A DNA stretch of 64,000 bases from Octopus vulgaris. Its lineage: Eukaryota. Location: NCBI GenBank assembly GCA_951406725.2, contig OX597822.1, forward strand, positions 66,216,001-66,280,000. Direction: 5' to 3'. The position numbers and the translations under genes are program-made. Shown in pieces: positions 40,254 through 59,945 of the stretch (position 1 is the stretch's first letter; each line of letters opens with the position of its first letter). A model generated the notes under the pieces. That model did not search any database. It worked only from the letters and a program-made list of their open reading frames with translations, and was not told the DNA's origin.

Positions 40254-40334
40254 TCTAGTATAATGTTACCAGAATAGCCTTTTTTATATGTCCAACGAAG
40301 ACTTCAAAGCCAATGTCACTCCTCGTTTTCTAAA

Positions 40335-40340
<6 letters not shown>
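40254..40340. repeat. Left arm of inverted repeat flanking the LINE
   Basis: ctagtataatgttaccagaatagccttttttat...gccaatgtcactcctcgttttctaaaatc is the reverse complement of 43212-43318 (the latter has a ~20-bp insertion). Confidence 0.9.
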
Positions 40341-40404
<64 letters not shown>

Positions 40405-40410
40405 ATCTAT

Positions 40411-40851
40411 ATGCTCCCAGGGATGACACACCATCAGCAGGCACAGGTGGAGTCCCTGCTCCATCTCACAAATACCTCTTTCATGGAGCAAATAGTTCTG
40501 CAACCAACAAGGGCAGATAATATACTGGATCTCTGCTTCACAAACAATATGGATATTATCCATAATGTTAATGTGATGCCGACAATGATCTCGGATCACA
40601 ACATAATAGAGCTGTCTATGTATGGAACAAAAGCCCCAGAAGACACACAGCCTATACGAAGCACCTACCATCTCTCCAACTTAAACTTTCATAAAGCCAA
40701 CTGGAAGTCGATTGAGAAAGAGATCCTCAAACAGGATTGGCCTAAATGTCTCTCCACACCGGACATAAACATGAAACACAAACACTTCATGTCCATAATA
40801 CAAGCCATATGTGACAAATATGTCCCAATGTGCAGGGCCAGCACACACTAG
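40411..40851 (+). pseudogene. C-terminal part of the LINE apurinic-like endonuclease, in frame with the RT ORF but ending at TAG
   Basis: QIVLQPTRADNILDLCFTNN...MISDHNII; same frame as 40888, with open codons NKNRIPRERKIL between the stop and the ATG. Confidence 0.9.
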
Positions 40852-40887
40852 AACAAAAACAGGATCCCTAGAGAAAGGAAGATTCTT

Positions 40888-42909
40888 ATGAGACGACGGA
40901 CAAGGATTGCAAACCGCCTGAGCAAGCACACCAAAAGTGGTGAGAAGTCTCGGCTCGAAAGAATGCTAATGGAAACTGAGAAAAGTCTACATCAGTCCCA
41001 TGAAAAGGAGAGAGCAGATAAAGAAGCTTGGGTAATAGAAAATATAAAATCAAACCCTAAAGCTTTCTTTAAGTTTGCCAAAGAGACAGCCACAGTGCAC
41101 CAGAGAATAGGACCTCTCTTCCAAAAAGATGGCTCTCTCACAGGAAATCCCACGAGGATAAGTGAAATACTGAACGAACAGTTCCAAAGTGTGTTCACTA
41201 CACCTCTAGGACACAGGCAAGTAAACAACCCAGAAGAATTCTTTGCCACTTTACCAGCGGCCAAAGAGACAAAAATTGAGTACATCAACATCGAAGAAGA
41301 TGATATCACACTAGCCATTGATGAGATTGACACAAACTCAGCTGCTGGACCTGATGGATTCCCAGCGATCCTTCTCAAATCGTGCAAACGAGCCCTTGCA
41401 AAACCGCTACAGCTTCTTTTTCAGAGCTTTCTTGCAAGTGGTAAGCTCCCAGTCAAACTGAAAGAGGGGGTAATATGCCCTATCCATAAGGGAGGTAGCA
41501 GAGCAGATGCTAAAAATTATAGGCCTATCTCTCTGCCCTCACACATCAGCAAAGTCATGGAACGAATAGTCCGTAAGAAACTAATCATGTTCCTTGAAGA
41601 AAATGACTTACTGTCTGACACCCAGCATGGATTTCGACCAGGTAGAGGCTGCCTAACACAGCTCCTGCAACACTATGACTGGGTGTTGAAACAGCTACTA
41701 AATGGCTCAAATGTGGATGTAATATATCTTGACTTTGCAAAAGCCTTTGATAAAGTCGACCATGGTATGATCTGTCACAAACTGCGTGGTCTCGGCATAG
41801 GCGGGAAACTTGGAGAGTGGCTGCACAACTTCCTAAAAGACAGAAAACAGGCAGTTGTGAGCAATGGAGCCACCTCCAGGGAAACGCAAATAACAAGCGG
41901 TGTCCCACAGGGCACTGTCTTGGGGCCACTGATGTTCATAGTGGCCCTTTCAGACATGCCTTCAGTTGCTACGATGACCACCCTTGCTAGCTATGCAGAT
42001 GACACAAAAGTCTCCCACGCAATACAAAACCCTGAAAATATTGCGCATCTGCAACATGAGCTGGACACAATATACAGGTGGGCTGAGGACAACAACATGC
42101 AGTTTAATGCAGGTAAGTTCCAGGCCCTGCGTTACTGGCACACAAAGGTAAATGACGTGAAGACTGGATACACTGGCCCAGGAAGAATTGCAATCCCTGA
42201 GTCAAAATCAGTGCGTGACCTGGGCATTGACATGAGCAATGATGCATCTTTCCAAATGCATATTGCTAATCTGGTGATAAAATGCAGACGGCTAGCTGGA
42301 TGGATTCTCCGAACTTTCAGAACAAGAGAGAAGGAGACACTGATGGTCCTATGGAAAACATTTGTCCTCAGCCGCTTGGACTACTGCTCCCAACTTTGGT
42401 CACCACACAATATAAAACAAACAGCAGAACTCGAAGCAACTCAAAGAAGCTACACAAAGAAAATCGTCTCAATGCAAAATGTCAGCTACTGGGAAAGACT
42501 GAAGGTATTAAACCTCTTCTCCCTGGAGCGGAGGCGGGAGAGATATGCAGTGATATACATCTGGAAAATCCTGGAGGGTCTTGTCCCAAACTTTGGCATT
42601 CAAAGTTACTCCAACCGCAGAACGGGGCGCCGCTGCGTGGTGCCAAGGATTCCAACATCACCATCAAAATACAGGTCCAGATACTGCAACAGCTTGGGTT
42701 TCAGAGGACCACAGCTCTTTAACATCCTCCCTAAATGCCTGAGAGACTTACATGGTGTGGATGTGGGTTTCTTTAAAACTAAACTGGATCTCTTCTTGTT
42801 GGGAGTCCCAGATGAACCTACCTCACGACAGGAGACACGGATGCGGGCAGCAGCATCGAACTCCCTTGTTGATCAAGTGCCACGTATCAGAGGTGGTTTC
42901 ACAAACTAG
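40888..42909 (+). CDS. LINE ORF2 reverse transcriptase and C-terminal region (673 aa open)
   Basis: AAGPDG, NYRPISL, QHGFR, YLDFAKAFDKVDH, GVPQGTVLGP, YADDTK, VRDLG, LDYCSQLWSP, SLERRR. Confidence 0.95.
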   Translation: MRRRTRIANRLSKHTKSGEKSRLERMLMETEKSLHQSHEKERADKEAWVIENIKSNPKAFFKFAKETATVHQRIGPLFQKDGSLTGNPTRISEILNEQFQSVFTTPLGHRQVNNPEEFFATLPAAKETKIEYINIEEDDITLAIDEIDTNSAAGPDGFPAILLKSCKRALAKPLQLLFQSFLASGKLPVKLKEGVICPIHKGGSRADAKNYRPISLPSHISKVMERIVRKKLIMFLEENDLLSDTQHGFRPGRGCLTQLLQHYDWVLKQLLNGSNVDVIYLDFAKAFDKVDHGMICHKLRGLGIGGKLGEWLHNFLKDRKQAVVSNGATSRETQITSGVPQGTVLGPLMFIVALSDMPSVATMTTLASYADDTKVSHAIQNPENIAHLQHELDTIYRWAEDNNMQFNAGKFQALRYWHTKVNDVKTGYTGPGRIAIPESKSVRDLGIDMSNDASFQMHIANLVIKCRRLAGWILRTFRTREKETLMVLWKTFVLSRLDYCSQLWSPHNIKQTAELEATQRSYTKKIVSMQNVSYWERLKVLNLFSLERRRERYAVIYIWKILEGLVPNFGIQSYSNRRTGRRCVVPRIPTSPSKYRSRYCNSLGFRGPQLFNILPKCLRDLHGVDVGFFKTKLDLFLLGVPDEPTSRQETRMRAAASNSLVDQVPRIRGGFTN

Positions 42910-56556: not shown

Positions 56557-56596
56557 TATATACATATATATATATACATATATATATATATAAATA

Positions 56597-56870
56597 TATA
56601 TATATACATATATATATCAACACACACATATATACACACGCACTTTATAACCAAATACATAGATATACACATACATTCACCCACATATATACACGCATAT
56701 AGATACAAACATATATATATATATTTGTGTGTTTATACATATATATACTTATATATGTTTGTATCTATATGTGTGTATATATGTGGGTGAATGTATGTGT
56801 ATATCTATGTATTTGGTTATAAAGTGCGTGTGTATATATGTGTGTGTTGATATATATATGTATATATATA
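56597..56870. repeat. Foldback: ~120-bp near-perfect inverted repeat, ~35-bp spacer
   Basis: cacacgcactttataaccaaatacatagatatacacatacattcacccac versus gtgggtgaatgtatgtgtatatctatgtatttggttataaagtgcgtgtg. Confidence 0.92.
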
Positions 56871-56943
56871 TACACATATATGTTTAATTAACTGTTTATC
56901 CATCTATATCTATTAACTATTACTTAACCATTCTCTCAAACTG

Positions 56944-58580: not shown

Positions 58581-58639
<59 letters not shown>

Positions 58640-58672
58640 CTATCAAAAGAAAAATAGGATGCAAAGGGTTTT

Positions 58673-58759
58673 GCGGTACATATGTTTCTGGCTTTATTGA
58701 ACAATTTATATCAATGCATAATTGATATAACATGTAGGTCAACAGCCTTCTTCAGCCGC
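58673..58759 (-). ncRNA. Type-I hammerhead ribozyme-like motif
   Basis: gcgg-CTGAAGA-a-ggct...agcc-a-GAAA-catatg-TA-ccgc; stem I gcgg/ccgc, long stem II with ttatatcaat/attgatataa, palindromic stem III. Confidence 0.65.
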
Positions 58760-58906
58760 GTACAATAACCACACCAAAGACATATATTACATTATAGCAG
58801 GTTTGAGAAAAAGTTTGGGAAAAAAACGAGTTTCATTGGGAAGGTAAATCTTCATAGTCGTAGACCTGCTATAATGTAATATATGTCTTTGGTGTGGTAA
58901 TTGTAC

Positions 58907-58993
58907 GCAGCTGAAGAAGGTTGTTGACCTACATGTTATATCAATTATGCATTGATATAAATTGTTCAATAAAGCCAGAAACATATGTACCGC
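58907..58993 (+). ncRNA. Type-I hammerhead ribozyme-like motif (second copy)
   Basis: gcag-CTGAAGA-a-ggtt...agcc-a-GAAA-catatg-TA-ccgc; one stem I mismatch. Confidence 0.6.
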
Positions 58994-59094
58994 AAAACCC
59001 TTTGCATCCTGTTTTTCTTTTGATAAATATATCCTATCAGCTACATCACTAGCTGGCATATACAGGTGCTTACAGTTATCAAGTATCCACCCTG

Positions 59095-59125
<31 letters not shown>

Positions 59126-59131
<6 letters not shown>

Positions 59132-59945
59132 TTTGGTAACAAAGTTCTTGGACAATTTTAACTTTAGTAACAATTAAAAAACGACAACGAACAATCAATC
59201 CAAAAGGTAATCACCCTCGTTATCGCTCACATTTTTTCCATCTTTCCGTCAAAGTTTTGAAGCCTTTCATCCCGAAATCGCGTGGCTTTGAATGAATAAA
59301 GTGAGAAAGGAACGATTTTCCTTCTTCGTTTTCGAACTCTGTATCGCCAATCGCTCGTTGCAAGGCAAAGAATAAGTGGTAGACAGAAGCTTCCTTCAGC
59401 TTCTCTGACGTCTTCTTTGCATGATGCGCTGGCGCGTTGTCATGGCTGTAAATTATCTTCTTCAAATTTGAGCATTTTTCGGCCATCGATTTATTCGCGG
59501 TAGACATCCTTATCAACAGTGGTCTTGCGTGGGAGAGGATCCAACATGATCACACCACGGCAATTTTACCAAACTGAGATCATAACTTCTTTTGCACAAG
59601 CGGTCCGTTTGGCGAAGGTTTTGGCTGTAGACCTTTGCTACACCAGGATCGTCTACACATCATGTTGGAGTACACTACCCACTTTTCATCCATATTGATT
59701 ACTGACTCCAACCAATCGAATCTTCGGCTTCGCCAGAGCAGACTTTGACATGCAGTGACGCGTGCTTCTTTGTTCACTTCAGTCAATTCATGTGGCACCC
59801 ATTTTCCAAGCTTGCTGACCTTGCCAAGACGATGCAGGTGGTTAATGATCGTGACATGGGAGACGCCAAACGTGCAGTTTGCATTGGATCGGTTTCAATG
59901 ATTTGCAGCAATGATTTATCCAAAAACTTTCTTACCAATGTAATA
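59126..59945 (-). mobile_element. Internally deleted mariner transposon
   Basis: PHELT, DEKWVVY, HDNAPAH, ERWKKC; imperfect ~30-bp TIRs ttggtaacaaagttcttgga / tccaaaaactttcttaccaa; TA flanks. Confidence 0.85.

What the first reader, a model, noticed from the sequence alone, without database searches (positions are those of the whole stretch)
58641..59025. 385-bp foldback carrying a hammerhead-ribozyme motif on each strand
Seen: two 162-bp near-perfect inverted arms around a 61-bp spacer. Each arm, read outward from the spacer, gives stem I - CUGAAGA - A - long stem II - A - GAAA - CAUAUG - UA - stem I'. The extra A on both sides of stem II is non-canonical, and stem II is long with its own 10-bp palindrome. 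Known: Penelope-like retroelements carry type-I hammerheads with palindromic stem III that cleave as dimers, and their pseudo-LTRs often occur inverted. Inference: this is a young non-coding Penelope-dependent (retrozyme-like) unit. A read-through transcript from either side makes the antisense arm first and would lock the ribozyme in a long dsRNA hairpin, whereas transcription starting in the spacer would free it.
Basis: partly seen in the sequence, partly recalled or inferred. Interest (0 to 1): 0.85.

Follow-up and report, generated by a model that had tools for sequence, protein, structure and literature searches.

The report
Truncated Penelope retrotransposon, inserted head-to-head
This is an ordinary scrap of a Penelope-like retrotransposon: two short copies of its ribozyme-bearing end sit head to head in a TA repeat, an arrangement already described for these elements, and this particular copy is likely dead.

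Summary
The inverted arms and both hammerhead motifs are real. They are not a dedicated non-coding unit. The element (58634-59099) is two 5'-truncated copies of the pseudo-LTR (pLTR) of a Penelope-like element (PLE), joined head to head in a (TA)n tract; only the right copy carries the ~67-nt tail. The 'spacer' is the extra upstream length of the left copy. Longer relatives in the same genome join this pLTR to an RT plus C-terminal GIY-YIG-type ORF with most Hydra-clade motifs. 17 of 51 sampled loci are inverted pairs, with scattered junctions; only 9 keep two whole ribozymes. A published table shows an extra base on both sides of stem II in most Hydra hammerheads, and one family with a hammerhead on each strand. 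The core is conserved between subfamilies, but inserted copies decay neutrally; the + arm has a stem I mismatch. Neither arm holds the likely promoter. Mildly new: a ~5-kb family with a 58-nt stem II, and 5' ends piling up at an Inr/DPE-like site. Cleavage is untested.

The parts
58581..58633 (.). Left (TA)n target tract
   Evidence: sequence; (TA)n flanks most family copies
58634..58862 (-).
58673..58759 (-). Type-I hammerhead motif, intact relative to the family majority; predicted cleavage between 58677 and 58676
   Evidence: activity untested
58803..58862 (-). 'Spacer' = upstream pLTR sequence present only in the left copy; lies downstream of the Inr/DPE-like site, which is absent here
58863..58864 (.). 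Head-to-head junction, with one base (58863) that matches neither side of the family sequence
   Evidence: comparison with copies
58864..59032 (+). Direct 5'-truncated pLTR copy (169 nt)
58907..58993 (+). Type-I hammerhead motif with A.C mismatch in stem I (58909) and a U-G wobble in stem II (58921); predicted cleavage after 58989
59033..59099 (+). PLE 'tail': start of the leader that runs into the ORF in full-length copies
   Evidence: continues into the ORF in L154
59100..59128 (.). Right (TA)n target tract
   Evidence: sequence

Best explanation
The locus is two 5'-truncated copies of a Penelope-like retrotransposon's pseudo-LTR, joined head to head inside a (TA)n tract, likely made in one insertion event and likely dead since. 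Shown: the same pLTR flanks an RT plus C-terminal endonuclease ORF elsewhere in the genome; the hammerhead is part of the pLTR, so any inverted pair long enough has one on each strand. Inferred mechanism: the element's protein nicked both strands of the TA tract and primed two cDNAs on uncleaved element RNA, one at the pLTR end and one about 70 nt further on (the tail); both stopped early and their ends were joined. The ribozyme matters to the source elements (likely a slow, dimer- or protein-assisted cutter of the transcript between promoter and ORF), not to this copy.
For: L154: inverted pLTR | pLTR + tail running into the ORF | RT-EN | ~2.4-kb 3' UTR | pLTR. L139: arm 97% identical to the window arm, preceded by EN and RT, with an inverted tail-less arm at the 5' end, between (TA)n tracts: the window's layout with a longer direct copy. 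One contig of run X1 holds the L139 arm-to-ORF junction as a loose end. RT piece 35% identical over 346 aa (E 2e-62) and EN piece 39% over 135 aa to an intact 671-aa database protein. 17 of 51 loci inverted, 16 of these with the tail on one arm only (counted by eye); in a second sample 12 of 60 loci have two pattern hits, 10 with exactly one tail. Core invariant between 6 subfamilies (0 of 11 vs 36 of 113 other columns, p 0.019) while private changes hit core and rest alike (0.9% vs 1.1%, p 0.66). 5' ends do not pile up at the cleavage site (1 of 72). Literature: inverted 5'-truncated copy plus one-sided tail, and Hydra motifs (PMC8557442); paired HHRs on opposite strands 100-700 bp apart (PMC4209133); both-strand nicking, two internal RT starts that define the tail, unprocessed RNA as substrate (PMC11167929).
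Against: No intact ORF of this family was found: the longest stop-free stretch with an RT/EN motif among 20 EN-selected loci is 384 aa. Pfam gives no significant match to any ORF piece, so the assignment rests on motifs and one homologue. RWK reads RWA/KWA in 3 of 3 copies and DKT reads DKI in 5 of 7. The in vitro mechanism was shown for a Poseidon-clade element, not this clade. Samples are top-scoring or exact-match copies, not random. The window's own junction was not bridged by any of the 32 listed contig pieces of 1102.
Confidence: 0.92

Rival explanations
1. Same element, different origin of the inversion: self-priming (fold-back) of one strand, on an antisense template as proposed by Arkhipova et al. 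2013, rather than two independent priming events.
For: Several junctions sit in palindromes or stem microhomologies (L002, L060, L179). PMC3846280 argues for self-priming from such palindromes (passages).
Against: A simple fold-back of one sense-templated cDNA needs the tail on the arm with the longer 5' part; it is on the shorter one here and in about 12 of 15 scorable loci (by eye; that sample is enriched for tails). The window junction has no palindrome. An antisense-template version is not excluded.
Confidence: 0.2
2. A dedicated non-autonomous, retrozyme-like unit whose long hairpin locks the ribozyme unless transcription starts in the spacer.
For: Most copies are short and non-coding; 21 of 53 arms that reach the DPE-like motif end within -3..+10 of an Inr-like site, so a TSS-to-tail unit of ~290-360 nt is common. 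The full locus folds into a very stable hairpin.
Against: No tandem arrays of whole HHR units among 51 loci, which is what defines non-LTR retrozymes; junction position random with respect to the HHR; neutral decay of the core in inserted copies; + arm stem I broken; promoter-like site absent from both arms; direct linkage to an ORF.
Confidence: 0.04
3. Assembly fold-back artefact.
For: No listed contig piece bridges the junction (contigs of a repeat break up, so this is weak).
Against: Arms differ at 4 of 162 sites, are of unequal length, and only one has the tail; the same layout recurs at 16 other loci of 51.
Confidence: 0.02
4. A DNA-transposon foldback/MITE with long terminal inverted repeats.
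For: Some copies look like 530-545-bp palindromes (L002, L003).
Against: Most copies are single-armed with a fixed 3' end and ragged 5' end; linkage to RT.
Confidence: 0.01

Closest known systems
Hydra-clade PLEs (Craig et al. 2021, PMC8557442), e.g. Penelope-13_HM and Hydra-1_Obim
   Same: RT with C-terminal GIY-YIG-type EN lacking the internal CCHH; CxCX5C linker; CxxC..E..N..CxH; (TA)n targets; HHR in the 3' pLTR with an extra base each side of stem II; Penelope-13_HM is listed with a 5'-truncated inverted copy and an HHR on both strands.
   Different: Unit about 5.3 kb (2.4-kb 3' UTR, Asn-rich ORF inserts) against '<3 kb'; stem II region 58 nt against about 10-25 nt in the Hydra rows of File S2; RWA for RWK, often DKI for DKT. 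By eye its N-terminal protein sequence and HHR differ from Hydra-1_Obim, so it is another family.
Minimal PLE hammerheads (Cervera and de la Pena 2014, PMC4209133)
   Same: Type I, short helix I, enlarged helix II, unpaired base 5' of stem II, palindromic helix III; pairs on opposite strands 100-700 bp apart already noted.
   Different: G10.1-C11.1 is called highly conserved there; here that position is mostly A.A or A.C.
Poseidon element PAc (Frangieh et al. 2024, PMC11167929)
   Same: HHR at the pLTR-ORF junction, two 3' end points defining a tail, AT-rich targets, no sign that cleaved RNA is the template.
   Different: Other clade; tail here 65-110 nt rather than 30-40; the ORF starts about 190 nt downstream of the cleavage site instead of inside stem II.
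Non-LTR retrozymes (PMC7229834; bioRxiv 10.64898/2026.07.22.740005)
   Same: Short non-coding sequences with a type-I HHR, related to PLE pLTRs.
   Different: Retrozymes are head-to-tail tandem repeats expressed as circles; this is a head-to-head pair of unequal truncated pLTRs.

Membership tests
EN+ Penelope-like element | pLTR linked to a single ORF with RT and C-terminal GIY-YIG-type EN | tested here: met
   In relatives L139 (arm 97% identical) and L154; ORFs are broken. The window copy itself has no ORF.
EN+ Penelope-like element | Fixed 3' end, ragged 5' truncation, inverted 5' copy, tail at one end | tested here: met
EN+ Penelope-like element | Type-I HHR in the pLTR | tested here: met
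   (motif and conservation only)
Hydra clade | CxCX5C linker upstream of the EN | tested here: met
   found in most EN-bearing loci
Hydra clade | No CCHH cysteines between GIY and YIG; CxxC and CxH around conserved E and N | tested here: met
   (about 13 residues between the two half-motifs, no CxxC; CxxC-E and N..CxH present)
Hydra clade | DKG changed to DKT | tested here: inconclusive
   DKT in L150 and L154, DKI in L139, L143, L144, L145, L147; never DKG
Hydra clade | N-terminal RWK motif | tested here: inconclusive
   RWA in L143 and L154, KWA in L147; aligned position and W kept, K replaced
Hydra clade | (TA)n insertion preference | tested here: met
Hydra clade | Groups with Hydra references in an RT tree | not testable with these tools
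   Reference sequences were seen only as paper text and were not available as input; so clade is 'probable', not filed as proven
Neptune/Nematis/Poseidon clades | CCHH motif within GIY-YIG | tested here: not met
   against the definition
Non-LTR retrozyme | Head-to-tail tandem units each with an HHR | tested here: not met
   0 of 51 loci; definition
Non-LTR retrozyme | Expressed as circular RNA | not testable with these tools
   only contigs of runs guessed to be RNA were available
Hammerhead ribozyme (active) | Site-specific self-cleavage | not testable with these tools
   needs in vitro assay; core selection in source lineages is indirect support

The most novel reading that the evidence does not exclude
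This family records the PLE replication cycle in the genome: most short copies are run-off cDNAs primed at the 5' pLTR-ORF junction and copied back to the transcription start (an Inr with a DPE about 28 nt on), and inverted pairs come from two primings, one at each of the two RT start points, across an uncleaved hammerhead that stays under selection with an A.A or A.C 10.1:11.1 mismatch and a 58-nt stem II.
Probability: 0.4. Interest if true: 0.4.

Novelty: new member of a known kind. Interest (0 to 1): 0.15.

Why it matters
The locus itself matters little: it is one of hundreds of decaying pLTR fragments. The family is of modest use to PLE specialists: an HHR variant with a very long stem II to assay, and a large set of insertions whose ends (one tail per inverted pair, 5' pile-up at a promoter-like site, none at the cleavage site) can test in vivo the internal-priming mechanism so far shown in vitro for one element.

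Tried and rejected
Rfam scan at E<=5: no hammerhead family matched. GIY-YIG-like reading of the arm itself: frames are closed by stops; rejected. Nematis clade (my first guess, from recalled motifs): rejected after reading the clade definitions. Idea that cDNAs stop at the ribozyme cut: two ends at that base in the first sample (L044, L060; L060 is explained by stem I microhomology) but only 1 of 72 in the pattern sample; rejected as a general feature. One search tried to map 5' ends by alignment; subfamily indels made a false cluster, so it was dropped and redone with an anchor; the p-values printed are for my by-eye counts (24 of 48), not the script's (21 of 46 at risk). Pfam on ORF pieces: nothing significant. 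Sequencing runs: no RNA holder listed; contigs of four runs guessed to be RNA cover the family pLTR but say nothing on this locus, strand, start or cleavage; no listed DNA contig piece bridged the window junction. Lunse et al. 2017 was not held; known to me only through a review passage. Earlier scan findings: none. Searches 'octopus + hammerhead ribozyme' and 'Penelope-like/solo pLTR/transcription start/truncated' showed no paper on this family or on a TSS pile-up in their listings; Repbase and Dfam were not searchable, so the family may already be catalogued.

Full report
Observation. The inverted repeat is there: arms 58634-58802 and 58864-59032, 169 nt, 96% complementary, 61 nt apart, with 4 differences in the first 162 nt. 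Each arm carries CUGAAGA, a 58-nt stem II region, GAAAC, a palindromic stem III and GUA, with predicted cuts after 58989 (+) and between 58677 and 58676 (-). The minus arm folds into the hammerhead shape as its MFE structure (z -2.75); the plus arm does not, because G>A at 58909 breaks stem I. Rfam has no matching model at E<=5.

It is a repeat family. The genome is 2.8 Gb in 227 contigs; size and microsatellite load suggest a cephalopod (my inference, not tested). An arm query gave 1098 first-look candidates, 40 scored, with arm matches at 94-98%; a 27-nt pattern has 171 exact matches, control 0. Candidates are not copy numbers. Copies end at one of two 3' points, the pLTR end or 65-110 nt further on, mostly next to (TA)n, and have ragged 5' ends.

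Parent element. Walking upstream reached an endonuclease C-terminus joined to the arm through a long 3' UTR (L098, L101). A search with that piece and 20 fetched loci gave L154: inverted pLTR, pLTR, tail running into the ORF start about 190 nt after the cleavage site, RT, EN, about 2.4 kb of UTR, pLTR. L139 has the window's layout with a longer direct copy: (TA)n, inverted tail-less arm, truncated RT-EN ORF, arm 97% identical to the window, tail, (TA)n. The RT piece is 35% identical over 346 aa and the EN piece 39% over 135 aa to an intact 671-aa database protein, the one hit among 623 candidates. Pfam gave nothing significant. No intact ORF was found in the 20 loci; the longest stop-free piece of this family is 384 aa. 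The motifs fit the Hydra clade as defined in section 11 of PMC8557442: CxCX5C linker, no CCHH, CxxC/CxH around E and N, (TA)n targets; DKT is DKI in 5 of 7 copies and RWK is RWA/KWA in 3 of 3. No tree with references could be run, so PLE membership is firm and Hydra membership probable.

The inversion is routine. 17 of 51 distinct loci chosen on the arm or the tail are inverted pairs; by eye 16 have the tail on one arm only and only 9 keep two whole hammerheads. In 60 further loci (fetched from the first 100 of 171 pattern matches, leaving out most already held) 12 have two hits: 10 with one tail, 1 with two, 1 tail-to-tail with none. This is the published PLE signature (PMC8557442 passages; PMC3846280 passages; PMC2377424 passages). 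PMC4209133 (parts 1-2 of 4 read) already reports paired hammerheads on opposite strands 100-700 bp apart, and File S1/S2 of PMC8557442 (part 2 of 59 and term searches) lists Penelope-13_HM with an inverted truncated copy and an HHR on both strands.

The ribozyme. File S2 shows an extra base on both sides of stem II in most Hydra HHRs. In 142 rows here these two positions are A.A 78, A.C 57, G-C 4, A-U 2, G.U 1: a variable 10.1:11.1 pair, not two insertions. Between 6 subfamilies 0 of 11 core columns vary against 36 of 113 others (p 0.019), and one stem II pair changes on both sides in 9 rows, probably one event. Private changes hit core and rest alike (11/1193 vs 133/11941, p 0.66); shared variants are 0 vs 46 (p 0.07). 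So source elements kept the ribozyme and inserted copies decay; 72 of 142 rows remain intact. What differs from the listed Hydra HHRs is the long stem II. Only 1 of 72 arms ends exactly at the cleavage site, so templates were mostly uncut there, as in vitro for PAc (PMC11167929, parts 1-2 of 4 read).

Mechanism. Shown: anatomy, linkage to the ORF, end distributions. Inferred: nicking of both strands of the TA tract, two cDNAs primed at the two 3' points, early termination, head-to-head joining. A single fold-back of a sense-templated cDNA would put the tail on the arm with the longer 5' part; here, and in about 12 of 15 scorable loci, it is on the shorter one, though that sample is enriched for tails. 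Self-priming on an antisense template (PMC3846280) is not excluded.

Side result. Of 53 arms that reach a DPE-like motif, 21 end within -3..+10 of an Inr-like A about 28 nt upstream, 12 of them at -1..+2, 25 run beyond it and 7 stop short: about 46% of those at risk against about 8% expected from the rate downstream. D. virilis Penelope has an Inr/DPE promoter in its pLTR; the Inr consensus itself is recalled. This suggests that many solo pLTRs are run-off copies of the 5' end of the transcript. TA microhomology with the target could also favour that spot, and a second cluster of about 8 ends lies some 30 nt downstream. The window's arms start about 60 and 120 nt downstream of the site, so neither has it.

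No tandem HHR units as in retrozymes (definition: bioRxiv 10.64898/2026.07.22.740005 part 1 of 5; PMC7229834 passages), no fixed unit length, junctions indifferent to the ribozyme, neutral decay, a damaged plus arm and no promoter-like site in the spacer. Read-through RNA would form a long hairpin, which would more likely feed silencing than switch a ribozyme (inference). Expression and cleavage could not be tested: no run on record as RNA holds the stretch, and contigs cannot show ends or strand. The junction was not bridged in the listed contig pieces, so an artefact is excluded only by internal evidence. Age: arms differ by 2.5%, so moderately recent.

Verdict. Real, explained, known in kind: a new family member of the Penelope-like elements, probably Hydra clade. 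Interest 0.15. Other supplements, Repbase and Dfam were not seen and may already hold this family.

Noticed in passing
L101:2580-5422 (-) and L147:5803-9715 (G000 C8 and C16): A second PLE family with a stop-free 565-aa RT-EN stretch, copies 98-99% identical, and a tiny hammerhead with the same extra base on each side of a 2-bp stem II; L147 is a head-to-head pair. Probably more recently active than the window's family.
   Followed up: partly
L044:1441-1687: The tail end is joined directly to sequence starting at the first base after the hammerhead cleavage site; may be a template jump from a cleaved RNA or a ligated circle. Single case.
   Followed up: partly
family pLTR, about 245 nt upstream of the cleavage site (e.g. 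L096 ~8089): 5' ends pile up at an Inr-like site with a DPE-like motif about 28 nt downstream.
   Followed up: partly
L139:4100-5030 and L154:4880-5700: Two long Asn-rich inserts in the ORF, after the RT and before the EN, like those reported for rotifer PLEs.
   Followed up: no
window 59129-59945 (-): Decayed mariner-like transposon directly after the right (TA)n tract; WVPHEL-type motif in ORF 59580-59894 (motif recalled).
   Followed up: no
window 40264-42909 (+): LINE-like ORF (endonuclease part plus 685-aa RT) interrupted by one stop (label from recalled motifs).
   Followed up: no
window ~26807 (-) and ~28859 (+): An identical stretch of at least 80 nt occurs inverted about 2 kb apart, possibly terminal repeats of a DNA element.
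   Followed up: no
window 56558-56909: Low-complexity inverted repeat, 173-nt arms, 88%, 6 nt apart.
   Followed up: no
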